Sequence record: PP355091.1
Direction: 5' to 3' (one strand)
Origin: Escherichia phage 235Ecol030PP
DNA: 64,000 nucleotides
Below, in pieces: positions 10,140-45,556 of this stretch. The notes beneath the pieces were generated by a model. The model was given only the letters and a program-made list of their open reading frames with translations, was not told the origin of the DNA and searched no databases. The position numbers and the translations under genes are program-made. The stretch's first letter is position 1. Every line of letters starts with the position of its first letter.

Positions 10140-11415
10140 TGGTGTTTAACCCTATGCATGATTTCTTTATTTTTACCGAGATTAAATCCGCGTTCGTTCG
10201 GGTTTCCAAGATATCCGCATGTTCTTCTTATGGTGTTCATCTTTTTAGGATCAGTTTCTCCACAAATAGAACAAACAAATCCGTTTTCAGTAGGAGTCAT
10301 TTCATGGGTACTTCCACATGTAAAACATTTATCTACTGGCATATTAACACCAAAATAATCTAAATGCTGTGCAGCATAATCCCATACGGCCTCAAGACCT
10401 TTTAGGTTATTTTTCATATCAGGAAGTTCAACATAAGAAATGTGACCACCTGTCGCAATGAAATGATATGGGGCTTCGCGAGAAATCTTTTCAAACGGAG
10501 TAATATTTTCTTCTACTGAAACATGGAAACTGTTAGTGTACCAGCCTTTATCAGTAACATCTTTTACACTTCCATATTTTTCTGTATCAAGTTTACAGAA
10601 GCGATAACAAAGGTTTTCAGCAGGAGTCGAATACAAACTAAAAGCAAACCCAGTTCTTTCAGTCCACTGTTTAAGACGAGCATTCATTTTAGTTAAAATT
10701 TCTTGTCCAATATCACGACCGACAAGAATATTCAATTCATGAATACCAATGTATCCTAAAGACACTGAACTTCTGCCATTTTTAAATAACTCAATTATAT
10801 CGTCATCAGGTTTAAGACGAACCCCGAATGCACCTTCTTGGTAAAGAATAGGAGCAACAGTCGCTTTAACTCCTTTTAAGGAACTAATTCTACACATCAA
10901 TGCTTCAAAACATAAATCCATTCGTTCATTGAACAATTCAACAAATTTCTGTTCATTGAACTGTGTTCCAATATAAGAATCTAACGCAATACGAGGAAGA
11001 TTCAATGTTACAACGCCAAGATTATTACGTCCATCAAGAATTTCATTACCAGTCGAATCTTTCCATACGCTCAAGAAACTACGGCAACCCATTGGAGAAA
11101 CAGGAATAGATGAACCGGTGATAGCTTTATTGTTCTTAGCTGAAATAATATCAGGATACATTCTTTTGCTTGCACACTTTAGAGCAAGCTGCTTAATATC
11201 ATAGTTCGGATCGTCTTTGTAAAGATTAACGCCTTCTTCGACGAACATAACAAGCTTAGGGAAAATAGGAGTTATCCCATCACGACCAAGACCTTTAATA
11301 CGATTTTTCAGAATTGCTTTCTGAATCATTCGTTCAGTCCAGTCAGTTCCCGTACCAAATGTAATTGTTACAAAAGGAGTCTGTCCGTTTGAACTGAAAA
11401 GTGTATTTACTTCAT
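10136..11415 (-). CDS. nrdD: Anaerobic ribonucleotide reductase NrdD, exon 2 (3' splice site position approximate)
   Basis: Large ORF with class III RNR C-terminal region including glycyl-radical region; exon boundary inferred from expected ~605-aa length and a G at 11416; not experimentally defined. Confidence 0.75.
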
Positions 11416-12460
11416 CATTATATTCAGCATGAGTCGCAAATTCATGCTCGTTTATATGAAACAACAAAATTTGGATAGTCCATAGATATGCAACGTTCTT
11501 TTATAGTGCTAGGATGAAAATTTAGCGCTTTAGCTGCTTCTATATAAGACGTATACTTAATACCGTCAACAACCACATATTCAGGAACTTTATGAATAGT
11601 AGTCTTAATACTCAAAACAAGAGGATGAGTTTCGACTTCACTTTCAGTGCAATTTAAATATTCCGCTGCTTTTTTAAAACTTCTAAAAGTTTTATTTTTA
11701 AGCTTTATCGATACTTGTTTTTTACTTTTTCGACTATTGATATTATTTTGCACATGTTCCTTAGATCTTCCGTTTTTAGCATAATATTCAGCTACAGAAG
11801 ATTTTATATTGTTTTTATGAGATTCGGATAACACTTTACCCTTATGAGCATCTCTTAATTTTTGAATATGTTCTTCAGTATCCGGATGCTTATAAAACTT
11901 TTTACCGCCTATGGATTTATTTAAACATTTTTTGCTATAAAAATATTTACGTATGACCTCTTCTTCATGTTTTAATGCATCTTTATAACTATCAAATGTT
12001 TTTAAAATTATCCATTTAGTAGGTGTATCAGTTTTTAAGCGTTCATTTATATACTTAGATGACGTTGTGTAAGTTTTCCAGTTTGTGGGCTTGTTTTTAA
12101 TTGTTCTAAATTTTTTATAACCGATATAAATGTCGCCATTAGAAAACTTAACTAAGTATGTAAATGCGTCTTTATCTTTTATTTTAGTACAACGTCTTTT
12201 TATCCATTTCATTGTTTCACCTCGTATTCATAAGATAATCTTATTTATACAAGATGACTGCTGCATGTCGCCATGCAGATTAGACTATATCTTCATCTTT
12301 CGATGCCGGCCGTTTCGAATAGCATTAGCTTCTATTCTACACCGCTACATTCATCACGGTTAGTCGTTAGGCATTTAGTTCAAAAGAACATTTAGCACGG
12401 GATTGTCTACTAGAGAGGTTCCCCGTTTAGACCGGTTTTACATGAGCCTGAATTAAATTA
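11416..12460 (-). mobile_element. Group I self-splicing intron in nrdD (sunY-type) carrying I-TevII ORF; boundaries approximate (about +/-10 nt)
   Basis: nrdD reading frame interrupted by about 1 kb; contains GIY-YIG endonuclease ORF; putative P1 pairing (exon ...AUGAGU with intron GCUCAU) near 12461. Confidence 0.7.
11442..12212 (-). CDS. I-TevII: Intron-encoded homing endonuclease I-TevII
   Basis: 256 aa; MKWIKRRCTKIKDKDAFTYLVKFSNGDIYIGYKK... (GIY-YIG-type N-terminus); lies inside nrdD intron as in T4. Confidence 0.85.
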   Translation of the reverse strand: MKWIKRRCTKIKDKDAFTYLVKFSNGDIYIGYKKFRTIKNKPTNWKTYTTSSKYINERLKTDTPTKWIILKTFDSYKDALKHEEEVIRKYFYSKKCLNKSIGGKKFYKHPDTEEHIQKLRDAHKGKVLSESHKNNIKSSVAEYYAKNGRSKEHVQNNINSRKSKKQVSIKLKNKTFRSFKKAAEYLNCTESEVETHPLVLSIKTTIHKVPEYVVVDGIKYTSYIEAAKALNFHPSTIKERCISMDYPNFVVSYKRA

Positions 12461-12998
12461 ACTCATACGCCTGAAACGCGTCATAGACATCTTTTTCTGT
12501 TTTAGATTGAGCATAATTCAACGCATCAGCGATTTGCCATTTTTCTGCATCCTCAATATGTTTTGCATAGGTGCGTTTAACATAAGGAGAAAGTACTTTA
12601 TCTACATTCGCAAAAGTCGTTCCGCCATATTGATGGGAAGCAACCTGTGCAGTAATTTGTGCCATAATTGCAGTAGCAACGCCAATTGATTTAGGAGTTT
12701 CAATCTGTGCATTACCGAGCTTAAATCCGTTCTCAAGCATTCCTTTTAAATCTACTAAACAGCAATTAGTAAATGGAAGAGCAGGGGAATAATCAATATC
12801 GTGCACGTGAATAATTCCGCTTTCATGCGCTTTCATAATAAAAGACGGGACCATATTTTTGGCAATGTGTTTAGACACAATACCAGCCATAAGGTCCCGT
12901 TGAGTTGGAAAAACACGAGAATCTTTATTAGCATTCTCGTTTAAAAGGTCTTTATTAGTTTTATGAATCAATCCTTCAATTTCTTTTTCAATTGTCAT
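12461..12998 (-). CDS. nrdD: Anaerobic ribonucleotide reductase NrdD, exon 1 (5' splice site approximate)
   Basis: MTIEKEIEGLIHKTNKDLLNENANKDSRVFPTQRDLMAGIVSKH...; 4-nt overlap with gene 49 stop. Confidence 0.8.
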
Positions 12999-13468
12999 TT
13001 TAAACTCTTTCTAAGCTGCTTCTTAAATGAAGCTATTAACTGTGTTTTGGTGTCAGATTCATTATATTCAAATCCTCTTTGAAGCATCTCGGCCATCATT
13101 TCCTCTTTTCCTAAACGAGAAAATTCCTTTGATTTATCTCCAACAAAGTTAGGGTGAATATTATTTTGGGTGTAATCGGATTTTAAATAAGTAAGTAAAT
13201 TTTCTAACCATTCAAGATAATCAACACCTTGTCCCTTTAAGCCAGAACGATTAAATTTATGCTTCATTTGACCTTCTGCGGCATTGCAGAGATTACAAAG
13301 CAATCCACGCACCTTTCCTGCTTTTGGTCCATTTAATTCATGGTCATGGTCGAGGTGATTAGCTTGAACATCAGGATTTAGTTCTCGTTGGCAAATTAAG
13401 CATTTACCGTTTTGTGCATTATAAAATTTCTGTTTTTCTTCTTTATATAATTTGCCAGTCAATAACAT
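12995..13468 (-). CDS. 49: Endonuclease VII (Holliday junction resolvase) gp49
   Basis: 157 aa; MLLTGKLYKEEKQKFYNAQNGKCLICQRELNPDVQANHLDHDHELNGPKAGKVRGLLCNLCN matches recalled T4 endo VII. Confidence 0.9.
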   Translation of the reverse strand: MLLTGKLYKEEKQKFYNAQNGKCLICQRELNPDVQANHLDHDHELNGPKAGKVRGLLCNLCNAAEGQMKHKFNRSGLKGQGVDYLEWLENLLTYLKSDYTQNNIHPNFVGDKSKEFSRLGKEEMMAEMLQRGFEYNESDTKTQLIASFKKQLRKSLK

Positions 13469-13507
13469 AATAAAACCCTTACCTTAAATAGATAAGGGTA
13501 TTTATTA

Positions 13508-13556
13508 TTTTCAAGTATTGTAAAACATTCGATGCAATCGTTTATACTGTCGAATC
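13508..13556. repeat. Direct repeat copy 1 (49 bp; partner at 13721-13769)
   Basis: ttttcaagtattgtaaaacattcgatgcaatcgtttatactgtcgaatc versus copy 2 with about 4 mismatches; covers the last 14 codons and stop of two different ORFs. Confidence 0.8.
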
Positions 13557-13687
13557 ATCTTTTTAGTAGGACGAGAATAGGTTCCTACGCAAGTGGTCAT
13601 ATGAGGGTCCGTAGAATGTCCTTTAATAAAAAGTTTCCAAACCTTACCGCCATTTAACTTTTCAGTATAAACCAATTCGGTTTTCAT
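13511..13687 (-). CDS. Small ORF (58 aa) sharing its C-terminal 14 residues with the next gene via a direct repeat
   Basis: MKTELVYTEKLNGGKVWKLFIKGHSTDPHMTTCVGTYSRPTKKMIRQYKRLHRMFYNT; AAGG 8 nt upstream of ATG; not in ORF track. Confidence 0.35.
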   Translation of the reverse strand: MKTELVYTEKLNGGKVWKLFIKGHSTDPHMTTCVGTYSRPTKKMIRQYKRLHRMFYNT

Positions 13688-13720
13688 TAAAATGCCTTGT
13701 CAGAAAAAGAATTTTGAGTT

Positions 13721-13769
13721 TTTTCAAGTATTGTAAAACATTTGATGCAATCGCTTATATTGCCGAATC
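13721..13769. repeat. Direct repeat copy 2 (49 bp; partner at 13508-13556)
   Basis: ttttcaagtattgtaaaacatttgatgcaatcgcttatattgccgaatc. Confidence 0.8.
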
Positions 13770-14227
13770 TTTTGGTCAGAAAAAGAAATTTGATTTTCAA
13801 GCCATTCAATGTATTCTGCGGCAGCTTGCATCAGGTTACCTTCATAGCCATCGTTATTTTCTTGTGCAGCTAATTTAGCTAATGCGTATGAAATACGTTC
13901 ACCTTGAAAATCGGCTTTAGGCTTCTGAACAACTTGATTAGTTTGCTCTACAACTTCTTCAATTTCGCCATTTTCTACTGATTCAGTATTCCACAAACAC
14001 CAATACGTAATTGGCTTATCGTAGATGTTAATAATCTTTCCATCAGAAAGTTCAATTTCAATAATTCCAGTATCAGGTTCTATATCATCTTCACATTCTT
14101 TTGCAAGTTCACGAACTTTAAAGACAGTACCTGCACTAAGTTCCGGCCAGTAATTACATAGCCCTGTATCAGCACGATTAATTCTAAACCACTTATCTAC
14201 TGTAATCATGTCCCATCTCCATATCAA
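13724..14227 (-). CDS. Hypothetical protein (occupies the T4 pin position; identity not established)
   Basis: 167-aa ORF; C-terminus IRQYKRLHQMFYNT duplicated in the small ORF downstream. Confidence 0.5.
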   Translation of the reverse strand: MIWRWDMITVDKWFRINRADTGLCNYWPELSAGTVFKVRELAKECEDDIEPDTGIIEIELSDGKIINIYDKPITYWCLWNTESVENGEIEEVVEQTNQVVQKPKADFQGERISYALAKLAAQENNDGYEGNLMQAAAEYIEWLENQISFSDQKIRQYKRLHQMFYNT

Positions 14228-14331
14228 TTAAGTCATTTATCATTGGTTCATTATACACCGTTTCTTCATCAGTGTAAACCGGTTCTTCCGGCTCTGGCTC
14301 TACAGTTTCCCATCTAGCCGCCCACCAAGGT

Positions 14332-14541
14332 TTAACCCCGAAGCTTATTAAGTTCTTCATAATCAATCCAGGATTCTAATCCTGATGGCAAATCAGATTC
14401 AATTTCCCAAAGAAGCTCTTCAATTTTCTGAAGACGATCTAGTTCTTCGGCTGGAATAGTAACCATTGATGGAGTTCTTGATACACTAATATCGTAAATC
14501 ATATTTACCCCAGTTTGACCATACAATCGCCGTATTTCCAC
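14332..14541 (-). CDS. Hypothetical protein
   Basis: 69-aa ORF. Confidence 0.4.
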   Translation of the reverse strand: MEIRRLYGQTGVNMIYDISVSRTPSMVTIPAEELDRLQKIEELLWEIESDLPSGLESWIDYEELNKLRG

Positions 14542-14720
14542 TTAGAAATAGACTTTTCACCGTTAGAATAATAAACTTCGAGTTTAGCACGATTATTTTT
14601 AATTTGAATAACCTTGGCTGTCATCAAAGTTCCATACCCGTAATAAACTGCAACTTCATCACCTACATATACCGCGCTTCCGCGGTAATCATGGATATAA
14701 TCAGTTCCTTCGAGAATCAT
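14505..14720 (-). CDS. Hypothetical protein
   Basis: 71-aa ORF, 4-nt overlap with nrdC stop. Confidence 0.45.
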   Translation of the reverse strand: MILEGTDYIHDYRGSAVYVGDEVAVYYGYGTLMTAKVIQIKNNRAKLEVYYSNGEKSISKWKYGDCMVKLG

Positions 14721-14980
14721 TTAAAGTATTCCCGCAATTGGTCAAATCCACCAATATGACTTCCATCAGGAGCAAATACCTGAGGCATCGTCAATCCGAT
14801 TTGAGTATCACGACCTAGTTTAGTCAGAAGCTCAGCAATTTTCTCATCATCAAAAACACCTTTTTCCGGCATAATGTTGATAAATTCAAACGGCTGTTTC
14901 TTCACAGTCAAAAGACGTTTTGCATTATCACAATACACACATTTATGAATGTTGCTATCATAACCATATACTTTAAACAT
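14717..14980 (-). CDS. nrdC: Thioredoxin/glutaredoxin NrdC
   Basis: 87 aa; MFKVYGYDSNIHKCVYCDNAKRLL (CVYC active site); matches recalled T4 NrdC. Confidence 0.9.
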   Translation of the reverse strand: MFKVYGYDSNIHKCVYCDNAKRLLTVKKQPFEFINIMPEKGVFDDEKIAELLTKLGRDTQIGLTMPQVFAPDGSHIGGFDQLREYFK

Positions 14981-14981
14981 A

Positions 14982-15365
14982 TTATTCCTTAATTCCTAGT
15001 ACTTGTTTAAAAGTCTCGTCGTAATCAAGACTTTGGCCCGTTTGTTCTTTATGTTTGTATATAATATCACTTACTTCTGATAGCATATTTTTATATGAAC
15101 GAGTTAAAGCAGATTTAAGCACGCTGTATCTATCAGGAAATTTACCATGTTCATTATAATAAGCTATTGCTAATTCACGGACTGCCTTTTCAGCAGTCTC
15201 CATATATTCTTTACGCTTGGTCATTTTCTTCTCGGTCAAATCGGTGTTTACAATGGCGACATTTATAACGAAGATTACTAGTCTGCCAATGGACCAATTG
15301 CACCTGTTCAGTTCCACATTCAGGGCAATTAGGAACGTTTTTAGAAGCACGTTCGCGACGTTCAA
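14982..15365 (-). CDS. Hypothetical protein; start probably internal (MTKRKEY near 15224)
   Basis: ORF overlaps upstream zinc-ribbon ORF by about 150 nt in its 5' part. Confidence 0.4.
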
Positions 15366-15525
15366 CCATGACCATTACAGAATCCCAATTAACAGGAGGG
15401 CTATAATCATCACAACCATGAATCTTTCCACGCATTTCCAGATCGTCTTCTTCACCAGCCATAATAATTTTAATTAGACTGGAATTACTAGAAGCTGCAA
15501 TATCTTCTAATAGACGCTTTTTCAT
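15211..15525 (-). CDS. Zinc-ribbon protein, hypothetical
   Basis: 104 aa; CPECGTEQ...CRHCKH two CxxC pairs. Confidence 0.5.
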
Positions 15526-16449
15526 TTCAATACCTCAATAGCATTACGTAAACCATTTGCTTTGGCGGTTAAAGCCTTAAGAACTTTAGTATGCTCTTCA
15601 ATTTGTTTTTCAACTTCAATCAAACGGGCACTGAGATATTCACGTTCTTCGCTCAAGTTATCAACCTTTTCTACTTTAGGTTCTTTTACAACTGGCTTAT
15701 ACGTATTAGGGTTCTTCAGTTTAATTAGAATGCGTGAACTGTATAACATTGAACCATTATCTTCGGTTTCATCATACATTTCCACTACGTCCATGATTTT
15801 TAACATCATGCGGAGTTTATAAGACAACGAACGAATAGTTTTGTTGTGCTTATTAATTTCTTTAGCTGTCATGGTGCCGAGATTACGTGAGTAATAATAA
15901 GGAACCTGGATATTAATTAATACTGATGAACCACCTGGCTTGTGTGTTACTTCATCAGCAATAACCCAGTCCTTAACATGAACTGTATTTGTACGGTCAT
16001 CGCCTGCGGTAAATAGTTTACGAGCATGCTTAAAAAGCATATTCACTTGGTCATTGAATTGACAAGCAAATTTATCAGCAAATTTAGTTTCAGGAATGGT
16101 AGATAACCAATCAGCCAAATGGGTCTTTTTAACATCGTTAACAATAGTAAATTCAACCAAATCGGTTATAGATGTCTCAGATTTAATGAAGCTCGGCTTC
16201 ATAAAATTTTTAATGTTATCGCGAGCTACAGTAGAAGATAACATACGAGAACGTTTAAACCATTCAAGCAAATTGCCCAACGAATGAGAATAAGCGTTTT
16301 GAGTATCTTTACAGATATGATTTTCCTGGCCAACATATTGAAGGAAATCACGAAGAATATTATTAATTACTGCTCTGTGTCCGATCTGATAATTGCGGTG
16401 TTTAGTAATAAGACTGTCAAAATAATCAATATAATGTTTACGAGTCATA
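15522..16449 (-). CDS. Hypothetical protein with C-terminal coiled coil (start taken at MTRKHYIDYF)
   Basis: ORF 15522-16499; C-terminal about 45 aa heptad-like ([42 protein letters not shown]). Confidence 0.5.
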
Positions 16450-16505
16450 TTAATCTCCTCAGTAGAAAGTAAGAACATTATACCACATCCTTGTGGCAAA
16501 GTAAA

Positions 16506-17525
16506 CTAGTTCAGTGCATTTAGTGCATTGTTCAGTTTAGAACGTTGCTTTGTCAGATTTTGAACCCTTGACTGAGCTTGTTCTAACGCCTTTTCAGCTT
16601 CTAACACTTCATTGGTCGCTTTAACGAGTTCATCATCTACTGCCTTAAGAGACTTCTCAATCGCATCCGCGTGCCATTTTTCAACAGGTTTAAGACTCGG
16701 ATTTTCAATAGGAAGAAAATTCACTTTATTGAATTTCCATGCATCTTTATTACTTGAACTATACATCCAAAATTTAGGATCGTTTGATGAGTAATTAGAT
16801 AAATTTAAGTTATCTTGCACTTCTTGCTTTTTCTCTTGCGGGACTTCGTCCTTTCTCAAAAAATCGTATTTAAATGAAACGATCATATCAAGTTCATATG
16901 TTGTTGTATGTTCCCAATTTCGTTCAAAACGAGGTAAAATCTTAGATTGAACAGCAGCAACAACATCCATATACTTAAATGCTTCTGTCAACTGTGATTT
17001 AAGGCATTCACAAATTGAAAGAGAATTTTTAGTATTAGGCTTAAAGCTAATTCGTGCAGTTCTATTATTTTCTTTTAACGGTCTTACTTCCATCCGAAGA
17101 GTATAACCATCAAATTTCAGATTCTTTAAGTTAATATCAGAACCTTTTAATCGACTAGCCGTCGACAAAATTTGCTTTAATTGTTTACGGAACAGAGCAA
17201 TAAATCTCCATTCAAGACGATAATGATTTGGATTAAAAAATCCTGTTGATAAATCGACCTTACTTTGACCAACGCCTTGAACAAATAGAGGATTTTTATA
17301 ATCAATAGTTTTACAGAAATCGGTGAGCTGCTCACGAGCAGTCATTTGAGTAATATACCCTGCTTTACTAAAATTACGCACCCATTCACTGCTATTCATA
17401 TACTTAAAGTGAATGGAACTATTAACTCTATCAGGGTCTAAATTATTTTGGCACAAAAATGTCATAACATTACGAGTATAGCTGGCATTACGAACCATAT
17501 CTTCAATTTGAGAACGAGTTTTCAT
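16506..17525 (-). CDS. Hypothetical protein with C-terminal coiled coil
   Basis: 339 aa; C-terminus VDDELVKATNEVLEAEKALEQAQSRVQNLTKQRSKLNNALNALN. Confidence 0.5.
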   Translation of the reverse strand: MKTRSQIEDMVRNASYTRNVMTFLCQNNLDPDRVNSSIHFKYMNSSEWVRNFSKAGYITQMTAREQLTDFCKTIDYKNPLFVQGVGQSKVDLSTGFFNPNHYRLEWRFIALFRKQLKQILSTASRLKGSDINLKNLKFDGYTLRMEVRPLKENNRTARISFKPNTKNSLSICECLKSQLTEAFKYMDVVAAVQSKILPRFERNWEHTTTYELDMIVSFKYDFLRKDEVPQEKKQEVQDNLNLSNYSSNDPKFWMYSSSNKDAWKFNKVNFLPIENPSLKPVEKWHADAIEKSLKAVDDELVKATNEVLEAEKALEQAQSRVQNLTKQRSKLNNALNALN

Positions 17526-17533
17526 GGTGTTCC

Positions 17534-18442
17534 TTAAGATTTAAGTAAATCAACAATTTTAATTAATTTTTCACGTTCAGATTTAGCTTTACTACTCAAT
17601 CCAGATAGTCTGAAAATTTCATCATCATATTGCTGAATAGAAATATTTAGCTCTTCAATCTGCTTATTAAAATAAGCAATTTGTTCAGAATGTTTTTCAT
17701 TACTGCGAACTGGTACAGGTTTTGTAGGTAATTTAGATGAACTGGATTCATCCGGGCGATAAATTAAAATACAATTTGAACCAATCGGACATTTAGCACC
17801 AGACACATATTCTAATGTTCCGGCTTCTTTTAAAACTTCAAAAGCTAAACAGAGATGATGCCCCATATTAACATAATCTGTAGAGCGAGCTCTGATGTAA
17901 TAATCATCTCCACGAGTACTAAATTTAAAGCATTTAAGGTCTTCTGTATTATTAGTTTTAAAAATCATTTGTTTATCTAGACCTTTAGCTAATCGAGCGC
18001 CTAATGCTAATAATCGTCGTTGATTTTCCCACAAATCCGCAATCATTTGGTCAAATGATAATTTCGGCATTAGTCGACCATAAAGGTCGTATCCTTTATT
18101 ATAATTGCGAAGGATTTCACTCGCGTTAATGCGAGACAACGCTCCAATTTTATTAAGGGCTTTCATGATGCGATTAGATAAACCCATTCCAGACCCGTTT
18201 GTTCGTTGTAAATGTTTATCTAATCCAAACCCAATATCAACTTTAAATTTATCTAAAATTTCAGCATGAACATCTCTGTCAATAACATTCAAATCCAAAG
18301 TTGGGTTAAATCTATGAAAAAATTTATCTGGCTCTCCACGACGAAGTACAGTCCATTCATTCAATTTTTTATTAACTAAAGATTTAATTACTGCATTGAC
18401 ATTATTAATTACTACTGACATATTTTCCTCACTCAATTTCAA
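17534..18442 (-). CDS. Hypothetical protein with C-terminal coiled coil
   Basis: 302 aa; C-terminus IAYFNKQIEELNISIQQYDDEIFRLSGLSSKAKSEREKLIKIVDLLKS. Confidence 0.5.
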   Translation of the reverse strand: MKLSEENMSVVINNVNAVIKSLVNKKLNEWTVLRRGEPDKFFHRFNPTLDLNVIDRDVHAEILDKFKVDIGFGLDKHLQRTNGSGMGLSNRIMKALNKIGALSRINASEILRNYNKGYDLYGRLMPKLSFDQMIADLWENQRRLLALGARLAKGLDKQMIFKTNNTEDLKCFKFSTRGDDYYIRARSTDYVNMGHHLCLAFEVLKEAGTLEYVSGAKCPIGSNCILIYRPDESSSSKLPTKPVPVRSNEKHSEQIAYFNKQIEELNISIQQYDDEIFRLSGLSSKAKSEREKLIKIVDLLKS

Positions 18443-18836
18443 TTTTACTAAATATACAGAATAAGATGGAACAGACTATATAAGCACCACACACAGATTG
18501 AACTAATACCATTCCAAAGAACCAAACAATATTATCAAACAATGTCTGTTTTACGTCGAAAGGACGTAAACTTACAGTAATATTATCGTCTTTTTCTATT
18601 GAAGAATACATCTCTGGGGAAATATATTCACTAAATCTATAACCGTCTTTGAGTTCATATACGGCAATAAACGATAAACTAGACCCCTTTCCTTGAGTTC
18701 CTGTAAGGGTATTAACTACAGTAACATCATAATCTTTATAATGCATATAATCATTAATTGCGTAATAACCATATGCAACTACTACACATAAACAACATAT
18801 CAATAAATTCAATCTTTTAATTATCAACTGTTTCAT
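18429..18836 (-). CDS. Membrane protein, hypothetical
   Basis: 135 aa; N-terminal and C-terminal hydrophobic segments. Confidence 0.45.
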   Translation of the reverse strand: MKQLIIKRLNLLICCLCVVVAYGYYAINDYMHYKDYDVTVVNTLTGTQGKGSSLSFIAVYELKDGYRFSEYISPEMYSSIEKDDNITVSLRPFDVKQTLFDNIVWFFGMVLVQSVCGAYIVCSILFCIFSKIEIE

Positions 18837-18891
18837 AATAATCTCAATTAAAAGGGCTTAGAACCATTATACCATCCTTGGTATAAAGCGG

Positions 18892-19419
18892 TTATGCGAG
18901 TACCGTCTTTAACCGTTCTTCAAACTTCCGAAGAGTATTTTGGCGTTCAGCTCTTTGCTTTTTGTAAGTTTCAATACGCTCTGAAATGAGAGTGTATCGT
19001 TCATTTACTGATTCTTTCATAAAATCAGGAATTTCACGAGAAGCTTTAATCTCGTCAAATTTATCAATAACAGCTTGCTCTTCAGCAATTAAGTTATCAT
19101 ACATCAAAATATCTTTCTTGATGAACTCAATATCTTCTTGAGTTACACGAGATAATTTAGATGCTTTATCCTTTTTGTACTGTTCGTTAGTATCACGAGA
19201 CCAGTGTAATGTACGATTTTTATTCGTATTCTTGTAAATTTCTACAATACCAATCTCATCAATAATAACGATCCAATTCCAACGGGATTTGTAAATTTGT
19301 CCTCCATCAACCGTGATTTCACCTCCGATTGAGATGTCATTAAAGAACTTGCTTTGTGCTTCAGATTTAAATTTACCATCGTTGTAATTTACCAGGTTGA
19401 AAATATCTTTAGCGTTCAT
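18892..19419 (-). CDS. Hypothetical protein with C-terminal coiled coil (start at MNAKDIF)
   Basis: Track ORF 18892-19479 includes promoter; GGAGGAACACAAA precedes ATG at 19419. Confidence 0.5.
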   Translation of the reverse strand: MNAKDIFNLVNYNDGKFKSEAQSKFFNDISIGGEITVDGGQIYKSRWNWIVIIDEIGIVEIYKNTNKNRTLHWSRDTNEQYKKDKASKLSRVTQEDIEFIKKDILMYDNLIAEEQAVIDKFDEIKASREIPDFMKESVNERYTLISERIETYKKQRAERQNTLRKFEERLKTVLA

Positions 19420-19447
19420 TTTGTGTTCCTCCGTAGTTGATAGTTGT

Positions 19448-19477
19448 ATAGTACCACAGAGGAACGGTCTTGTAAAC
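19448..19477 (-). promoter_or_regulatory. T4-type early promoter
   Basis: -35 GTTTACA (19471-19477), 17-nt spacer, -10 TACTAT (19448-19453), followed by conserved ACAACTATCAACTA. Confidence 0.6.
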
Positions 19478-19479
19478 AA

Positions 19480-19794
19480 CTAAAAGAAACTTCTTTCACA
19501 ATTTTTTCCACTGAACCACGCACTCACTGCTTTCTTAGTCTCAGGAGCAGTGTTATCCATAAACCATTCAAAGGCAGCCTTTTTATGATTCTGGAGGGCT
19601 TCTCGGGCTTTAATCTGCTCACGGTCTATTAACACTAACATATGAGCCTTTCTTGTCACCAGGGGCTTCTTATGATTTTTTGAATACTCCCAATCATTTG
19701 TCCATCGCATCGTTGTTGCGAACTGAAATACTGCTTCTTTAATTTTAGTTTCGTAAATTTCACGAGCCTTTGAGTATAACATCATTACCTCCAT
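19480..19794 (-). CDS. Hypothetical protein
   Basis: 104-aa ORF. Confidence 0.45.
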   Translation of the reverse strand: MEVMMLYSKAREIYETKIKEAVFQFATTMRWTNDWEYSKNHKKPLVTRKAHMLVLIDREQIKAREALQNHKKAAFEWFMDNTAPETKKAVSAWFSGKNCERSFF

Positions 19795-19884
19795 TTACCA
19801 GTTTAATTCTAGTCATCTTTTTGATGGCAGTCCATATAATCTATTTCTGAACTGCCTTTTTGTCTTAGAAGGCCTCTTATGAAT

Positions 19885-20871
19885 TTATTTCAGAAGAGTA
19901 ACCTCAGCGATTTCTTGCCAACCGTTTTTGTCGGTCATAATAAAGTCAGCAAGATAAAGAGCAGTACGCAGTGAAACATTGCGTAAACGATTAACATTAA
20001 CTTTCATCCATGATAATGCTTTATAAGTTTCTTCATCAGAAAGACCGCGCTTTTGCATCATGTCGGTTGAAAGAATAACATCTTCAACCCTGACCATAAT
20101 TTCTTCATTAGTGTGAACACCCAAATCTAAATAAACTGAGCGGGACACTAATGCTTGTAAATGTGGAGCAAGTTTAGTACCACGGTCTAATTCGCGGTCA
20201 ATGTCAACGTTTGTGATAAAAACAATCGTTCCTTTAAATTCAAACTCACGCTCAATGCCTTTTTCTTCTAAGTAAGAAGATGCAGTGCTCCAGCAGACTT
20301 TACGGGTCTCTCCAGTGTCCAGAGCAGCTTTCAGAAGATTAAGAATGTCCATATCAGAGAAAACATCCACATCATCAATCAAAAGGACAGAATTCTCTTC
20401 ACGATTATTCCAAAGCTGTTCATAAAGACCGATACCAGAGATTTTACCATTAATGCTTTTATACTCAATGTATCCAATATCATTTGCTTTATTTAAAGCT
20501 TTATCTAAAGAATACGTTTTACCAATACCTGCTGCTCCCGAGATAATTAATGAACGAATGTTTCCGTTAATAATACCATTCGTCATCATTCCCATAACAT
20601 TAAATCTTTTATTAATGCGGGTTTTCATATCTTCATATGATTCTTTAACTTCTTCAACTTTTACACCATCATATGAAATGTCTGATTTGTAAACCCAAAC
20701 ACCGCGACGTTTACCGTCAATTTCAACAAAAACTTTACCATCTCCTTGTGCATCTACCGGAGCATTATCTGGGAACCATTCGCCTAAGAGCTCAAAAGTT
20801 CCAGAGATTTCTTTACCGAAGTAGATACCCTTATTGATAGTTACAGTTTTCATTTTATTCTCCAATTTCAC
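19885..20871 (-). CDS. P-loop ATPase (AAA-like), function unknown
   Basis: 328 aa; Walker A GAAGIGKT, Walker B LLIDDVD. Confidence 0.6.
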   Translation of the reverse strand: MKLENKMKTVTINKGIYFGKEISGTFELLGEWFPDNAPVDAQGDGKVFVEIDGKRRGVWVYKSDISYDGVKVEEVKESYEDMKTRINKRFNVMGMMTNGIINGNIRSLIISGAAGIGKTYSLDKALNKANDIGYIEYKSINGKISGIGLYEQLWNNREENSVLLIDDVDVFSDMDILNLLKAALDTGETRKVCWSTASSYLEEKGIEREFEFKGTIVFITNVDIDRELDRGTKLAPHLQALVSRSVYLDLGVHTNEEIMVRVEDVILSTDMMQKRGLSDEETYKALSWMKVNVNRLRNVSLRTALYLADFIMTDKNGWQEIAEVTLLK

Positions 20872-20922: not shown

Positions 20923-21186
20923 TTATTTTAACATTCGCCAAATTTTTACTGCTTCGCGACGAGATACTTCTACAGCTCCAAGTTCTACAGCTTTTTGGCG
21001 TCGCCGAGCGTGTAAGTCATAATGTTTAATGCGTTTATCTTGAAACCAAGAACGTTTCATTCCTATTGCTTCTGCCATTTCATGAAGCTCTTCAATATCT
21101 CCATCAGTGAACATATGACAATTTTTAGTTGGATGACCGCGAAGTTTCCATCCATGATTCATTAAAACATCTACGTAAACTGTCAT
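20923..21186 (-). CDS. Hypothetical protein
   Basis: 87-aa ORF. Confidence 0.45.
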   Translation of the reverse strand: MTVYVDVLMNHGWKLRGHPTKNCHMFTDGDIEELHEMAEAIGMKRSWFQDKRIKHYDLHARRRQKAVELGAVEVSRREAVKIWRMLK

Positions 21187-21332
21187 TGATTCTTCTCCAA
21201 ATAAGTTTCGATAATTTTCTGGGCGAGATAAACCGCGTTATCTTCAGTTGCGTCTTCTAAGAAACTTTCAAAACACTCTGAAATTTCTTCTGTGTCAATC
21301 AATTTTTTTACTTCAATTGGTGTAATTTTCAT
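21183..21332 (-). CDS. Small acidic protein (49 aa; start at MKITPIEV)
   Basis: Track ORF 21183-21503 runs through promoter and terminator; first ATG downstream of promoter taken. Confidence 0.4.
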   Translation of the reverse strand: MKITPIEVKKLIDTEEISECFESFLEDATEDNAVYLAQKIIETYLEKNQ

Positions 21333-21369
21333 TTTGTTTTTCCGTTTAAGTGTTTGTTTTGATAGTTGT

Positions 21370-21399
21370 ATAGTACCATAAAGCTTTATGCTTGTAAAC
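21370..21399 (-). promoter_or_regulatory. T4-type early promoter
   Basis: -35 GTTTACA (21393-21399), 17-nt spacer, -10 TACTAT (21370-21375). Confidence 0.6.
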
Positions 21400-21423
21400 C
21401 ACTTTGTGAAAAAATTTTTGAAA

Positions 21424-21448
21424 TAAAAAAGGGAGCCCGAAGGCTCCC
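21424..21448 (-). terminator. Intrinsic terminator (GGGAGCC-UUCG-GGCUCCC plus U6)
   Basis: gggagcccgaaggctccc at 21431-21448 with plus-strand A-run 21425-21430 (U-run on minus RNA), directly after stop of ORF 21451-22464. Confidence 0.7.
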
Positions 21449-21450
21449 TA

Positions 21451-22464
21451 TCATTTATAATAACTTCGGTGGTTTTCAAGATAGACCTTCTCAAGGAAGT
21501 CATCCCAAAAACTCATGTCTACTGTTTTAGGCATACCGTTCTTAGAAGCTTCAGTAGATGCTGCTTCTACTTGATCGACCACATCTTCCAAAAACTCTTG
21601 AACTGTTTTAAATGGATGTTTACCCAACTTCACGTCGAGAATAAATGGAGCATCTTGAAGTGGATAGACTAAGTCACCAGTTTTGTAAATTTCCAATAGT
21701 TGGAGTCCACCACGGCAAGCATGACTCAGAGCTTTCCAGTCAATGCCTTCATTGGCTTCGGCCTTACGAGCACGTTCACCGTATTCAGCATCTAATTTGT
21801 TCAGTGACTGCTTAAGCTCAATAAGAGAAAGCGTTGTCTGATATTTACGACCCAACACAGTGTAGAACATTTGTGGGCCTGTTTTCTCATGATTATGGAA
21901 CACCCATTCACAGAACTCGTTTTCAGGGAGTCTGTGTTTGATATCTTCTACCTTAGTACGACGAAGTCTATCAGGGATTCCTTCTTGATAATCAACCCAC
22001 TGATCGGGGATTTGATTAACTACTTTCAATACATCACGCAATGCGGCCAAACGAGAGCCCTTAACACCATATTTAGAAGCTTGCTTGCGAACATATCCTA
22101 AATAGGATTTCATGTTAGTTGTATAAAACCGTGAACGATTGTCTTGAATAAACTTCCATACATCAGGCAAATCAGATTTAACTACCAGTTCAGGTGGAGT
22201 ATGGAGCATATCCAATGCCACAGTTTCACCATCTGCTGCTAATTTAAAGAAATATTTAAGACTGTATAGTTCATGGTCAATATCATCTTTAGTGTTTTTA
22301 GATGATGTGTTGTTAGTGTTTTTACTCATATGCTCTTTAACATTTCCGATAAGAATATCGCGAGCAGGAGGAACAAAGATTTCTTTAAAATCTACATCAG
22401 ATTCTGGAGTAGAAGTTCCATAAAGATGACTACCAAAATAACTTTTCATTACTGTTTTCATCAT
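21451..22464 (-). CDS. Putative nucleotidyltransferase-fold protein (Pol-beta superfamily-like), function unknown
   Basis: 337 aa; N-terminal GSHLYGTSTPESDVDF resembles minimal NTase G[SG]...D.D motif; assignment tentative. Confidence 0.45.
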   Translation of the reverse strand: MMKTVMKSYFGSHLYGTSTPESDVDFKEIFVPPARDILIGNVKEHMSKNTNNTSSKNTKDDIDHELYSLKYFFKLAADGETVALDMLHTPPELVVKSDLPDVWKFIQDNRSRFYTTNMKSYLGYVRKQASKYGVKGSRLAALRDVLKVVNQIPDQWVDYQEGIPDRLRRTKVEDIKHRLPENEFCEWVFHNHEKTGPQMFYTVLGRKYQTTLSLIELKQSLNKLDAEYGERARKAEANEGIDWKALSHACRGGLQLLEIYKTGDLVYPLQDAPFILDVKLGKHPFKTVQEFLEDVVDQVEAASTEASKNGMPKTVDMSFWDDFLEKVYLENHRSYYK

Positions 22465-36124: not shown

Positions 36125-36718
36125 TTATTTCAGAGAATTAATGTATTCCTGAACATCGGCAGAGGTAGTTTCAACCCCAGAAATATTACCGTTAAAGGTT
36201 TCAACTCGAGCAAGAGTATCTTCAATATCAACCTTAGTCAGTGCTGCAATTTCAACTACATCATCAGCAGTACTAATTCCAAGGGCATTCGCGGCGCGAG
36301 TTTCACGGATATATTCCAATTTAACTGCAAGTTCTTGGCGAGCATCATCCAATTCAACTACTTTCTTAGCGATTTCAATTCGCATTTCAGCATAACCATC
36401 AGCTTTAGTAGTCAACTGCTCAGCTGTTCGACGATATAGTAAACCGAGTTTAGCATGCATTGTTACATCTTGACCTTCGGAAAGAAGCTTGCGAATTTCA
36501 CGCTCTTTTGATTCGGCTTGCTTATTCTTTTCGACAATAAGTTCACGAATACGCTTTTCTTCATTAATAGATTTAACGGAAGCAGTTTTTAGATCTTTAA
36601 TCTTATCAAGTAGTTTTGCTGCCGCAGCAGTATACTGTTCTTCAACAGATAGATTTTTAGCCATAGCAGAACCAAGTTTAGTGCGAATAAACTCAACAAT
36701 TTTCTTCAGTGTGTTCAT
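36125..36718 (-). CDS. Coiled-coil protein, hypothetical (PspA-like architecture, unverified)
   Basis: 197 aa; long charged heptad regions. Confidence 0.5.
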
Positions 36719-43616: not shown

Positions 43617-44147
43617 TTAAACTTCCGCTATAATTTTTCCATCTTTTTCTACTTGAAAATACGTATAAGGAATCGTTGCTGTACATACTAAAGCCGGGTC
43701 TGAATCTTCTGTGTAGCTAAATTCTACTTCAGATAGGTCAGAAACCCAAGGCTTATAAAAATTTATTGACATCACGATTTCAGTTTTGCTATTATCTAAA
43801 ATGTAAAGCGTAATGTATTCAGGACCTGTTTTTTGGGCAGTATTTTCACCTGTAAGATAGTTGCTAGTTCCTAGCATCCATTCATACATTCCTATCCATG
43901 ACTTAAGTTCTTCATCAACTATAAATCTCACGATGAGTGGATCGTACTCAAATGTAGCACCTGGACGTTGTGCTCGGCCCAGTCCAAACGGCCCAGTCAC
44001 GGTATCAGTAACAGGTATTCTAATTCCTGGAATAGGAACTGACTGAGCATTTAAAGTAAAAGCAGATGTAGTATTACTATGTGGTATTGATACTACAAAG
44101 TTAGTTGTATTTGCTTGGTTAAAAATTTGTTGCAGTGCTTGCGACAT
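43617..44147 (-). CDS. 3: Tail completion / sheath stabiliser gp3
   Basis: Track ORF starts at TTG (44228); ATG at 44147 with GAGGAA 5 nt upstream gives 176 aa as in T4. Confidence 0.85.
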   Translation of the reverse strand: MSQALQQIFNQANTTNFVVSIPHSNTTSAFTLNAQSVPIPGIRIPVTDTVTGPFGLGRAQRPGATFEYDPLIVRFIVDEELKSWIGMYEWMLGTSNYLTGENTAQKTGPEYITLYILDNSKTEIVMSINFYKPWVSDLSEVEFSYTEDSDPALVCTATIPYTYFQVEKDGKIIAEV

Positions 44148-44253
44148 ATATTCCTCATAATGCTTTATAACTGTTGGTGGTATAATGGGTCTAAGTCCCT
44201 TCCATTCAATTCCATTTAGAACAAACAACAGAAAAGAATGGAAGATAATAGAA

Positions 44254-45078
44254 TTAGATATTTGACCAGACTTTGTTTGCAGAGAAACGTTTTCCTTTTG
44301 AAACGAACTGCTGAAGTGGCATTAACACAACGTTCGCCCAGTCTTTCGGGGCGATTTCAACAAGGCTACCCATAATATTACCAGGTATATATGCCTTAAT
44401 CATTTGATCTGCACCCCTAAATCCTTTCACTTGACTCCAATCAATTTTTAATTTCGTTTTATTAGTAATAGTAGGTGTATTTGCATATTGCTTTAAAAGC
44501 TCTTCTAGGAATTGCTGACGAGCTTTAGGTGGAATATAGTGCAAGTTTAATCCGTACATTAAATTATGCTTACCTAAACCGAGGTAAATTATCAAAGGAA
44601 ATTTATCCCAGTAAGGAAGAGTTTCCTTGTGTTTAGCGTCATAAGCAAAAGCATATATTCGTCCCGGCTGCGGGCGAACAACTTTATGTCCTTTTACTTG
44701 CTTAATAGTTTCAGCAAACCACTTTCTGGTTTTATTATTAATTGCTGCGCCTTCATTACGAATTTTATCACGCAATGTTTGCCTGAATGAATTTATCATA
44801 AGCAGTTGTCTTTCTTGCTTATTGAGTTTATTCATTGGTTTTGATTCAAGCTTTTGAATCTTTTCAGCCGTTTTAATTCCTGAAGCATATTTTGACATTG
44901 CCGAAGTAAACGTGGAGTATTTAATTCCTCTTTCTTCAGCAAATTGCTTTCCTGTCATTCCTTTTGCTTTGGCCTTTTTATATTCAAGACCTATCTGAAT
45001 CCATTTCTTTTCGTTTAATGATTGCTTAACCTTTGGAACTTGGGGAGTGCTTTCATTAATTATTTGAAAAATAGCCAT
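44254..45078 (-). CDS. 2: DNA end protector protein gp2
   Basis: 274 aa; synteny 4-2-3-1. Confidence 0.85.
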
Positions 45079-45530
45079 TATGCCCCCTTAAAGCCAAGAG
45101 CTCGTAATCCATCTTCTGTTAGAATTCTAAATTTTATTCCACGCTTTTCAGCTAAAGCTTGCGCTGCTTTCCATTTGTCGGTATTAACAGAATATGTATA
45201 AATTTCATTCATAAATCTTTTCTTCGCTGCGGTTGTTAGATGTGCTGGTTTAACCGGTGGTTGTGTTTCTTTTTTAGGTTTTATTTCAATAAAAAATTCT
45301 TGTCCAGAAGAATCTTTCATCCAAATATCCATGAAGTATCTACGTTTTTTCCCTTCTGCATTACAAAAATAAGGAATTACTGCTGTTTCACTACCCCATG
45401 CAATAATTTCTGGATTTTTATCTAACCATTCAAAAAAGAATTTTTCCCAATTTGATCTATACGTAATTTTTTTAGGGTCACCTCTATACTTTGATATATT
45501 TTTAGGAACCCATTTTCCAGAATATGCCAT
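45078..45530 (-). CDS. 4: Head completion protein gp4
   Basis: 150 aa; late promoter upstream on minus strand. Confidence 0.85.
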
Positions 45531-45541
45531 TGGATTCTCCT

Positions 45542-45549: not shown

Positions 45550-45556
45550 GATAATA

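What the first reader, a model, noticed from the sequence alone, without database searches (positions are those of the whole stretch)
15522..19419. Run of four proteins with unrelated N-terminal domains but similar C-terminal coiled-coil tails
ORFs 15522-16449, 16506-17525, 17534-18442 and 18892-19419 each end in a 40-50 residue heptad-like segment with different upstream domains and no recognisable motifs. This shared architecture suggests a family using a common coiled-coil for oligomerisation or docking.
Basis: seen in the sequence. Interest (0 to 1): 0.4.

Follow-up and report, generated by a model that had tools for sequence, protein, structure and literature searches.

The report
T4 NrdC paralogs share coiled-coil tail
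Three of the four genes (nrdC.3, nrdC.5, nrdC.6 of a T4-like phage) are diverged tandem copies of one phage-only family in which a fast-changing head sits on a more conserved C-terminal coiled coil; one copy is known to disarm a bacterial immune system, so the others are candidates for similar jobs, and the fourth gene (nrdC.8) is unrelated.

Summary
The window is a Tequatrovirus (T4-like) genome. The four ORFs are nrdC.3, nrdC.5, nrdC.6 and nrdC.8, all early genes on the minus strand.

The tails are real for three of them. NrdC.3, NrdC.5 and NrdC.6 each end in 46-59 residues in one unbroken heptad register (3.5-residue periodicity p=0.004, 0.0008, 0.008). All three finish with the same motif, L-x-x-[AVI]-[ILV]-x-x-[LIV]-[KN]. 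NrdC.8 scores as helical and heptad-like, but its periodicity is not significant (p=0.14).

The heads are not unrelated. Profile comparisons show NrdC.3, NrdC.5, NrdC.6, and NrdC.4 (deleted in this phage), share collinear head motifs, a KPV linker and the tail. They are tandem paralogs of one family confined to T4-like phages. NrdC.8 is not a member.

Within each paralog family the tail is more conserved than the head (dN/dS 0.10-0.19 against 0.27-0.36).

Published work shows T4 NrdC.5 overcomes the Dsr1 defence. A 2025 preprint shows the NrdC.8 ortholog inhibits Druantia III.

Best reading: an array of counter-defence proteins with diversifying heads on an inherited coiled-coil module, probably for oligomerisation. 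That role for the tail is untested. Interest is moderate.

The parts
15522..16448 (-). nrdC.3 (308 aa), a paralog of the NrdC.3/4/5/6 family. Close relatives carry Pfam PF26897.
   Evidence: ORF. Matches PHROG 1435. Homologs carry PF26897. hhalign against NrdC.4 gives P=2.8e-14 and against NrdC.5 P=6e-5.
15525..15662 (-). NrdC.3 coiled-coil tail, residues 263-308, ending [10 protein letters not shown].
   Evidence: Unbroken heptad register. Periodicity p=0.004. Tail dN/dS 0.13 against 0.27 for the head.
16438..16445 (-). ACTCGTAA microhomology at the junction of the nrdC.4 deletion. Upstream of it the sequence is nrdC.4's promoter, ribosome-binding site and start codon. Downstream it is the nrdC.3 body.
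   Evidence: DNA alignment with MZ726795, which has nrdC.4, and with LYE-01, which lacks it. Sequence read.
16477..16505 (-). T4 early-promoter-like site (GTTTAC-N-TGgTATAAT), now driving nrdC.3.
   Evidence: Consensus scan. The same site is annotated as an early promoter in MZ726795. This is a consensus match only.
16506..17525 (-). nrdC.5 (339 aa), Pfam DUF7235. About 92-94% identical to T4 NrdC.5, the published anti-Dsr1 factor.
   Evidence: Pfam match at 416 bits. Identity to a T4 record. Function from Srikant et al. 2022, PMC9391042.
16509..16685 (-). NrdC.5 coiled-coil tail, residues 281-339, ending KLNNALNALN.
   Evidence: Heptad register. Periodicity p=0.0008. AF2 helix 283-338. The invariant columns of the family at 25% identity lie largely in this tail.
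17534..18421 (-). nrdC.6 (295 aa from the ATG), the most distant paralog in the window. Close relatives carry Pfam PF26899.
   Evidence: Homologs. AF2 model with pLDDT 78.9. hhalign against the NrdC.3+4+5 profile gives P=1.4e-5, probability 80%, with a reversed-profile control of 0.39.
17537..17704 (-). NrdC.6 coiled-coil tail, residues 240-295, ending KLIKIVDLLKS. It may kink at residues 272-276.
   Evidence: Heptad register. Periodicity p=0.008. AF2 helices 242-271 and 277-294. Tail dN/dS 0.10 against 0.36 for the head.
18429..18836 (-). nrdC.7 (135 aa), a hydrophobic protein lying between nrdC.6 and nrdC.8. It has no tail and is not part of the family.
   Evidence: ORF. Matches PHROG 2547. 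Low heptad score.
18892..19419 (-). nrdC.8 (175 aa), unrelated to the paralog family. It is the ortholog of bas37_0203, reported as an inhibitor of Druantia type III.
   Evidence: Matches PHROG 2274. hhalign against every other family gives P>=0.08. The deletion primers for bas37_0203 map to 18907-18929 and 19293-19314. Gene order comes from the preprint's tables.
18895..19026 (-). NrdC.8 C-terminal helical segment, residues 132-175. Another helical stretch precedes it, separated by Pro131.
   Evidence: Third-highest C-terminal heptad score in the window, but 3.5-residue periodicity is not significant, p=0.14. Tail dN/dS 0.22 exceeds the head's 0.14.
19448..19476 (-). Early-promoter-like site upstream of nrdC.8.
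   Evidence: Consensus scan. The equivalent site is annotated as an early promoter in MZ726795.

Best explanation
nrdC.3, nrdC.5 and nrdC.6 are diverged tandem duplicates of one ancestral gene. So is nrdC.4, which this phage has lost by an 8-bp microhomology deletion. The family is confined to T4-like (Straboviridae) phages. Every member keeps the same build: a head of about 230-280 residues with collinear motifs, a Pro-containing linker beginning [KE]PV, and a 46-59-residue C-terminal coiled coil. The head motifs are F+RSRxLSxxxAxxxLxxF, FxxxhxxhLxxAxRLxxGDD and LxxxLxxMDVVE. The coiled coil runs to the last residue and ends L-x-x-[AVI]-[ILV]-x-x-[LIV]-[KN]. These points are shown here.

The genes are early, non-essential accessory genes lying in a counter-defence island. 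T4 NrdC.5 overcomes the Dsr1 sirtuin defence. Neighbouring genes counter OLD, Septu and Druantia III. These points come from the literature.

Inferred: the heads are the specificity-determining parts. Each binds or neutralises a different host immunity protein and diverges quickly. The tail is the conserved part and most likely drives homo-oligomerisation into a parallel coiled-coil stalk. That stalk would present two or more heads to oligomeric defence complexes.

NrdC.8 is a separate, unrelated small anti-defence protein. Its C-terminal helices resemble the tails only superficially.
For: Identity of the locus: 96-97% DNA identity to Tequatrovirus genomes, with synteny nrdC through nrdC.11.

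Homology of the heads:
- NrdC.3-NrdC.4 heads, P=6e-14.
- NrdC.4-NrdC.5 heads, P=1.3e-4 over 171 columns.
- NrdC.3-NrdC.5 full length, P=6e-5.
- Combined NrdC.3+4+5 profile against NrdC.6, P=1.4e-5, probability 80%.
- Reversed-profile controls, P>=0.16.
- Collinear motif blocks in alignments.
- Three NrdC.3-family members hit Pfam DUF7235 directly.
- The AF2 models of NrdC.6 and NrdC.5 have the same order of elements: beta-hairpin, helix, beta-hairpin, disordered linker, tail.

Tail: heptad register and periodicity. C-terminal motif in register. At high divergence the tail is always more conserved than the head, for example NrdC.6 head 26% against tail 56% identity. dN/dS for the tail is 0.10-0.19 against 0.27-0.36 for the head, at equal or higher dS.

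Distribution: only 15 hits among 1.84 billion representative proteins. Members with tails also occur in Mosigvirus and Dhakavirus. They occur in a Klebsiella phage (P=2.2e-8) and an Acinetobacter phage (P=1.9e-5) too. BFVD structural neighbours of NrdC.6 are 300-335-aa proteins of other T4-like phages.

Function: NrdC.5 against Dsr1, PMC9391042. NrdC.8 ortholog against Druantia III and NrdC.1 against Septu, preprint 10.1101/2025.11.20.689424. gp49.2 against OLD, PMC13096335. The same preprint's tables list nrdC.3 to nrdC.8 as non-essential.
Against: - No oligomer prediction or experiment was possible, so the role of the tail is inference.
- The middle of the NrdC.5 tail has Ala at three successive d positions and Arg at one a position, which is not a canonical leucine zipper.
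- The NrdC.6 link rests on one 86-column profile alignment plus architecture. The NrdC.5 model is poor (pLDDT 51.5), so its fold search was uninformative.
- Only NrdC.5 has a demonstrated counter-defence role. Nothing is known for NrdC.3, NrdC.4 or NrdC.6.
- Whether NrdC.5 binds Dsr1 directly is unknown.
Confidence: 0.6

Rival explanations
1. One reading: unrelated N-terminal domains have each acquired the same coiled-coil module by domain shuffling, as a common oligomerisation or docking device.
For: The tails share a C-terminal motif in register. Within each family the tail is the most conserved part. One metagenomic protein, P0203, joins a foreign head to an exact NrdC.5 tail.
Against: The heads are homologous and collinear, so the tail was inherited with them. 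There is no DNA-level similarity between the tails that would indicate recent transfer or gene conversion. P0203 sits on an 803-bp contig and its head is a fragment of a bacterial type IIG restriction enzyme (PADLOC E=3e-25), so it is most likely an assembly chimera.
Confidence: 0.07
2. Hetero-oligomer or common-partner model: the shared C-terminal motif lets the co-expressed paralogs assemble with one another into mixed, multi-headed complexes. Alternatively it docks all of them on one common phage or host partner.
For: The last 11 residues are similar across all four paralog families, more so than any heptad-shifted alignment. The genes are adjacent and lie behind early-type promoter sites. 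Conserved residues at c and g positions of the NrdC.5 tail (N323, Q327, K330, A334, A337) lie outside the a/d core.
Against: Paralog content varies freely between phages. NrdC.4 is absent here and in LYE-01. One Mosigvirus, AV109, has only two copies. The Klebsiella phage region examined has one. Upstream of the last 11 residues each family has its own strongly conserved tail sequence. NrdC.5 expressed alone from a plasmid rescued infection on a Dsr1 host, although other paralogs may still have been present in that phage.
Confidence: 0.13
3. The tail does not oligomerise. It packs back onto its own head or forms an intramolecular hairpin, acting as a structural brace or as part of the target-binding surface.
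For: AF2 predicts a helix-turn-helix for the NrdC.6 tail with pLDDT 72-93. The Ala-rich d positions in NrdC.5 suit close antiparallel packing.
Against: A disordered linker of 15-60 residues, variable in length, separates head and tail. The NrdC.5 tail is predicted as a single 56-residue helix. Monomer predictions often fold long coiled-coil helices back on themselves (general knowledge).
Confidence: 0.15
4. The resemblance is trivial: these are ordinary helical C-termini with coiled-coil-like composition and no shared function.
For: NrdC.8 fails the periodicity test. Tail-only profile scores for NrdC.6 and NrdC.8 against the others are weak or out of register.
Against: The four ORFs rank 1, 2, 3 and 6 of 173 for C-terminal heptad score. 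Periodicity is significant against shuffles for three of them. The strict terminal motif occurs at the C-terminus of only these three ORFs in the window. Tail dN/dS is two- to three-fold lower than head dN/dS, while dS is not lower.
Confidence: 0.05

Closest known systems
T4 NrdC.5, the counter-defence factor against Dsr1 (Srikant, Guegler and Laub 2022, eLife, PMC9391042)
   Same: The window ORF 16506-17525 is its ortholog. It is about 92-94% identical to a T4 record, sits at the same position and belongs to Pfam DUF7235.
   Different: The paper gives no mechanism, domain analysis or paralog relationship. The link to NrdC.3, NrdC.4 and NrdC.6 and the conserved coiled-coil tail are not mentioned in any paper found.
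bas37_0203, the NrdC.8 ortholog, reported as an inhibitor of Druantia type III (HIDEN-SEQ preprint, 10.1101/2025.11.20.689424)
   Same: The gene position and size match, and the deletion primers map inside window ORF 18892-19419. It is an early accessory gene in the same island.
   Different: It is not a member of the NrdC.3/4/5/6 family. Its head is unrelated, its heptad signal is weak and its constraint pattern is reversed.
T4 internal proteins IPI, IPII and IPIII, and the ipI hypervariable locus
   Same: By analogy of design: a locus of anti-defence proteins that share one short conserved module (there the N-terminal capsid-targeting sequence, from established T4 knowledge) joined to variable bodies. 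The locus is discussed.
   Different: In the internal proteins the shared module is N-terminal, is cleaved, and serves packaging into the head. Here it is a C-terminal coiled coil and the bodies are homologous. No sequence relationship was tested.
Pfam families PF26897, PF23882 (DUF7235) and PF26899
   Same: These are the curated families to which NrdC.3, NrdC.5 and NrdC.6 respectively belong.
   Different: They are filed as three separate families of unknown function. The evidence here says they are one superfamily that also includes NrdC.4 and Klebsiella and Acinetobacter phage proteins.
Thioredoxin or glutaredoxin, the label many GenBank records give these genes
   Same: Nothing beyond the gene-name prefix 'nrdC.' and proximity to the real glutaredoxin gene nrdC (14717-14980).
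   Different: There is no thioredoxin-family hit in Pfam or NCBIfam and no CxxC motif in any of the four proteins. The label is an annotation-propagation error.

Membership tests
NrdC.3/4/5/6 superfamily (Pfam PF26897 + PF23882/DUF7235 + PF26899) | A significant match to one of the three family models. | tested here: met
   NrdC.5 matches DUF7235 at 416 bits against a cut-off of 30. NrdC.3 and NrdC.6 are 95-99% identical to cluster representatives that carry PF26897 and PF26899. Those two models are not in the local Pfam copy. NrdC.8 matches none.
NrdC.3/4/5/6 superfamily (Pfam PF26897 + PF23882/DUF7235 + PF26899) | Collinear head motifs: SRxLS..A...L..F, F...h..hL..A.RL..GDD and L...L..MDVVE. 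| tested here: met
   Met for NrdC.3 and NrdC.5. For NrdC.6 the first two blocks align at P=1.4e-5 and the third at P=0.0014. Not met for NrdC.8 (P>=0.25).
NrdC.3/4/5/6 superfamily (Pfam PF26897 + PF23882/DUF7235 + PF26899) | A Pro linker followed by a heptad tail that runs to the C-terminus and ends L-x-x-[AVI]-[ILV]-x-x-[LIV]-[KN]. | tested here: met
   NrdC.3, NrdC.5 and NrdC.6 are the only 3 of 173 window ORFs with the strict terminal motif. NrdC.8 meets only a loosened form.
Coiled coil | Hydrophobic periodicity of 3.5 residues over at least 4 heptads without a helix breaker. | tested here: met
   p=0.004, 0.0008 and 0.008 for NrdC.3, NrdC.5 and NrdC.6, with best period 3.45-3.50. For NrdC.8 the result is inconclusive to negative (p=0.14). 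No standard predictor (COILS, Marcoil) was available.
Coiled coil | A long continuous alpha-helix in structure prediction. | tested here: met
   NrdC.5 helix 283-338. NrdC.6 helices 242-271 and 277-294.
Coiled coil | Two or more helices actually associate, as homo- or hetero-oligomers. | not testable with these tools
   Only monomer AlphaFold2 was available, with 2 jobs. No multimer prediction or experiment was possible.
Phage counter-defence (anti-defence) proteins | Loss of the gene sensitises the phage to a defined defence system, and expressing the gene restores infection. | not tested
   From the literature only: T4 NrdC.5 against Dsr1 and bas37_0203, the NrdC.8 ortholog, against Druantia III. 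There are no data for NrdC.3 or NrdC.6.
Phage counter-defence (anti-defence) proteins | An early, non-essential accessory gene in a variable island. | tested here: met
   Early-promoter-like sites (consensus matches only). nrdC.3 to nrdC.8 are listed as non-essential in the HIDEN-SEQ tables. Gene content varies between phages.
Thioredoxin/glutaredoxin (the label in public records) | A thioredoxin-fold family match and a CxxC active site. | tested here: not met
   No such hit in Pfam or NCBIfam. No CxxC motif in the four sequences.

The most novel reading that the evidence does not exclude
The conserved terminal motif is a specific docking code rather than a mere oligomerisation device. Through it the co-expressed paralogs would assemble with one another, or on one common phage or host partner. 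The result would be a mixed, multi-headed counter-defence complex whose head composition can be changed by gaining or losing paralogs.
Probability: 0.12. Interest if true: 0.7.

Novelty: new member of a known kind. Interest (0 to 1): 0.45.

Why it matters
T4 is the best-studied phage, yet the genes from nrdC.3 to nrdC.6 are still labelled 'hypothetical', or wrongly 'thioredoxin'.

Showing that they are paralogs of the one member with a known role (NrdC.5 against Dsr1) turns three or four orphan genes per genome into concrete candidates for counter-defence factors. The same applies to their relatives in Klebsiella and Acinetobacter phages. It also suggests where specificity lies (the head) and where a shared mechanism lies (the tail).

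This makes simple experiments possible: tail deletion, tail swaps, and screening paralog deletions against defence libraries. It also argues for merging three separate Pfam families of unknown function.

Tried and rejected
- **Natural head swap (P0203).** P0203 joins a foreign head to an exact NrdC.5 tail. It lies on an 803-bp metagenome contig. Its head matches a bacterial type IIG restriction-modification enzyme (PADLOC E=3e-25). I treated it as an assembly chimera. The tblastn leads H116 and H117 turned out to be a frameshifted and a normal nrdC.5.
- **P0056.** This NrdC.5/NrdC.3 hybrid is a deletion or assembly fusion and says nothing about modularity.
- **Gene conversion or nucleotide-level constraint on the tails.** There are no meaningful DNA repeats between the tails, and tail dS is not lower than head dS.
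- **NrdC.5 model.** It came out at pLDDT 51.5 and its BFVD search is not interpretable.
- **afdb50 library.** It was not available.
- **Rfam.** No RNA family was found in 10500-20500.

Full report
**What the region is.** The 5-kb stretch is 96-97% identical to hundreds of Tequatrovirus (T4-like) genomes. All genes lie on the minus strand, in the T4 order. That order is gene 49 (endonuclease VII, 12995-13468), nrdC (14717-14980), nrdC.1, nrdC.2 (15211-15525) and nrdC.3 (15522-16448). It continues with nrdC.5 (16506-17525), nrdC.6 (17534-18421), nrdC.7 (18429-18836), nrdC.8 (18892-19419), nrdC.9, nrdC.10 and nrdC.11. The four ORFs of the finding are therefore nrdC.3, nrdC.5, nrdC.6 and nrdC.8. 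Most relatives carry a further 1-kb gene, nrdC.4, between nrdC.5 and nrdC.3. It is missing here.

- A single heptad register can be drawn from a Pro-containing linker to the last residues of all four proteins, and of NrdC.4 from a relative.
- Among 173 ATG-ORFs of at least 50 aa in the 64-kb window, the four rank 1, 2, 3 and 6 for a C-terminal heptad score.
- Against 20,000 shuffles of each tail, the 3.5-residue hydrophobic periodicity gives p=0.004 (NrdC.3), 0.0008 (NrdC.5) and 0.008 (NrdC.6), with best period 3.45-3.50. It is not significant for NrdC.8 (p=0.14).
- AlphaFold2 predicts an uninterrupted helix 283-338 for NrdC.5 and helices 242-271 and 277-294 for NrdC.6. In both, a disordered linker precedes the tail.

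**Are the tails alike beyond composition?** Partly. Tail-only profile comparison gives P=3.8e-4 for NrdC.3 against NrdC.5, aligned in register at the C-terminus. The other pairs are weaker or out of register. I then anchored the family profiles at the last d position. In that alignment the final 11 residues score higher than all 42 shifted alignments, including shifts of 7, 14 and 21. This holds for every pair among NrdC.3, NrdC.4, NrdC.5 and NrdC.6. The shared ending is L-x-x-[AVI]-[ILV]-x-x-[LIV]-[KN]:
- NrdC.3: [10 protein letters not shown]
- NrdC.4: RLEQALQLIK
- NrdC.5: KLNNALNALN
- NrdC.6 of T4 type: KLIKIVDLLKS
- NrdC.6 of Dhakavirus type: KLMNVIELLKD

In the window this strict motif sits at the C-terminus of these three ORFs only. 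The motif was derived from these same sequences. The independent support is its recurrence in the divergent orthologs of other genera. NrdC.8 (KFEERLKTVLA) fits only loosely.

**Are the heads unrelated?** No, and this is the main correction.
- BLASTP already links NrdC.3 and NrdC.4 over their full length.
- With family alignments built from database homologs and 20 related loci, hhalign gives four links. These are NrdC.3-NrdC.4 heads P=6e-14, NrdC.4-NrdC.5 heads P=1.3e-4 over 171 columns, NrdC.3-NrdC.5 full length P=6e-5, and the combined NrdC.3+4+5 profile against NrdC.6 P=1.4e-5 (probability 80%). Reversed-profile controls stay at P>=0.16.
- The alignments are collinear. They show a start M(K)TR in NrdC.3, NrdC.4 and NrdC.5, followed by the blocks F+RSRxLSxxxAxxxLxxF, FxxxhxxhLxxAxRLxxGDD and LxxxLxxMDVVE. 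Then come a linker starting [KE]PV and the tail.
- Three NrdC.3-family proteins hit Pfam DUF7235 (the NrdC.5 model) directly.
- The good NrdC.6 model (pLDDT 78.9) and the better part of the poor NrdC.5 model share one order of elements: beta-hairpin, helix, beta-hairpin, disordered linker, tail.
- NrdC.8 shows no relationship to any of them (P>=0.08 in every comparison).

**Distribution.** A profile of NrdC.3 plus NrdC.5 finds only 15 proteins among 1.84 billion representatives, nearly all of them family members or fragments of them. Each T4-like genus carries its own set of paralogs between nrdC.2 and nrdC.8:
- Tequatrovirus has four.
- Mosigvirus has two or three.
- Dhakavirus and its relatives have three.

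**Constraint.** Within every paralog family the tail is more conserved than the head once sequences diverge. For NrdC.6, heads at 26% identity go with tails at 56%. For NrdC.4 the figures are 45% and 68%, for NrdC.3 58% and 80%, and for NrdC.5 40% and 63%.

| Family | Head dN/dS | Tail dN/dS |
|---|---|---|
| NrdC.3 | 0.27 | 0.13 |
| NrdC.4 | 0.28 | 0.13 |
| NrdC.5 | 0.36 | 0.19 |
| NrdC.6 | 0.36 | 0.10 |
| NrdC.8 | 0.14 | 0.22 |

Tail dS is equal to or higher than head dS, so the constraint acts on the protein and not on the DNA. There are no DNA repeats between the tails, so gene conversion is not the cause. In the NrdC.5 family at about 25% identity, the invariant columns cluster in the linker start (KP.E) and the last 17 residues: N323, Q327, K330, L331, A334, A337 and L338. 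Several of these lie at c and g positions flanking the core. NrdC.8 shows the opposite pattern, with the head more constrained than the tail.

**What is known about function.**
- Srikant et al. (eLife 2022) showed that a T4 clone which had lost nrdC.5 could not infect cells carrying the sirtuin defence Dsr1. Expressing nrdC.5 restored infection. The window protein is about 92-94% identical to T4's.
- The HIDEN-SEQ preprint (2025) reports bas37_0203 as an inhibitor of Druantia type III. Its gene table places that 528-nt gene exactly where nrdC.8 lies. The primers used to delete it match inside the window's nrdC.8, at 18907-18929 with no mismatch and at 19293-19314 with one.
- The same preprint reports nrdC.1 as an inhibitor of Septu and lists nrdC.3 to nrdC.8 as non-essential.
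- A 2026 paper reports gp49.2 as an inhibitor of OLD.

The region is therefore a counter-defence island. No paper that I could search mentions the paralogy or the tail.

**Most likely mechanism.**
- Shown: the genes are tandem paralogs with a common architecture, a relatively fast-evolving head and a more constrained coiled-coil tail.
- From the literature: one paralog neutralises a defence system.
- Inferred: each head targets a different host immunity protein. The tail forms a homo-oligomeric coiled-coil stalk that presents several heads, giving avidity for oligomeric defence complexes.

I put about 0.85 on the paralogy (about 0.8 for including NrdC.6), about 0.45 on tail-driven oligomerisation, and 0.6 on the model overall.

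Three alternatives remain open:
- A hetero-oligomer or common docking partner. The shared terminal motif favours it. The free gain and loss of paralogs, and the family-specific sequence in the rest of each tail, count against it.
- An intramolecular hairpin or brace. The AF2 monomer model folds the NrdC.6 tail back, and the NrdC.5 tail has Ala at three successive d positions.
- Trivial resemblance, which disfavour.

**Verdict.** The genes themselves are known T4 genes. What is new is their union into one family with a conserved tail, and the prediction that NrdC.3, NrdC.4 and NrdC.6 are counter-defence factors related to NrdC.5. Interest is moderate: the prediction is useful and testable, but it does not surprise in kind.

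Noticed in passing
window 16438-16505: nrdC.4 is deleted in this phage. The junction is an 8-bp microhomology (ACTCGTAA) shared by the 5' ends of the paralogs nrdC.4 and nrdC.3, so nrdC.3 now uses nrdC.4's early promoter, ribosome-binding site and start codon. Phage LYE-01 has the same junction, and two other phages (215Ecol030PP, EC121) appear to lack nrdC.4 too, judging from their unbroken match to the window.
   Followed up: yes
window 11442-12998: A 256-aa GIY-YIG/NUMOD1 endonuclease ORF (11442-12212) follows a truncated nrdD ORF (12453-12998, NRDD domain positions 1-141 only). This looks like the nrdD intron with its homing endonuclease (I-TevII in T4, from memory). Rfam gave no group I intron at the gathering threshold in 10500-20500.
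   Followed up: partly
public records matched: Many GenBank and UniRef entries call nrdC.3 through nrdC.10 'thioredoxin'. None of the four proteins has a thioredoxin-family match or a CxxC motif. The label has been propagated from the gene-name prefix.
   Followed up: yes
window 20923-21503: Two small ORFs sit between nrdC.10 and nrdC.11: an 87-aa Pfam DUF4031 protein and a 106-aa ORF. T4 (HIDEN-SEQ gene table) and FelixPlatter annotate nothing between nrdC.10 and nrdC.11, while ASO78A has a 264-nt and a shorter 150-nt ORF there, so this is another variable spot in the island.
   Followed up: no
window 36125-36718 (-): A 197-aa ORF with the fourth-highest C-terminal heptad score in the window (ending ...[12 protein letters not shown]). 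It has no Pfam match and lacks the terminal motif of the NrdC paralogs.
   Followed up: no
window 15211-15525 (-), nrdC.2: This 104-aa protein has a C-terminal four-cysteine zinc-ribbon signature (CPEC...CRHC). It gives several weak zinc-ribbon Pfam hits, all below their cut-offs.
   Followed up: no
P0058 (Shigella phage Sf25) and L023 4438-5279 (phage Ec_YwIITB1): Sf25 NrdC.6 is 378 aa because of an internal tandem duplication of about 83 residues, spanning the end of the head, the linker and the start of the tail. Ec_YwIITB1 has a frameshifted nrdC.5. Both may be real variants or sequencing errors.
   Followed up: partly
window 15522-16448, NrdC.3 residues 29-85: Weak matches to the N-terminal SAM-like domain of tyrosine recombinases in two libraries (NCBIfam E=0.0017, Pfam E=0.08). 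Only 2 of 18 family members reproduce the match, so it is probably chance.
   Followed up: partly
window about 44000-46000: GC skew changes sign from negative to positive near 45 kb. This fits a switch from minus-strand (early) to plus-strand gene orientation.
   Followed up: no
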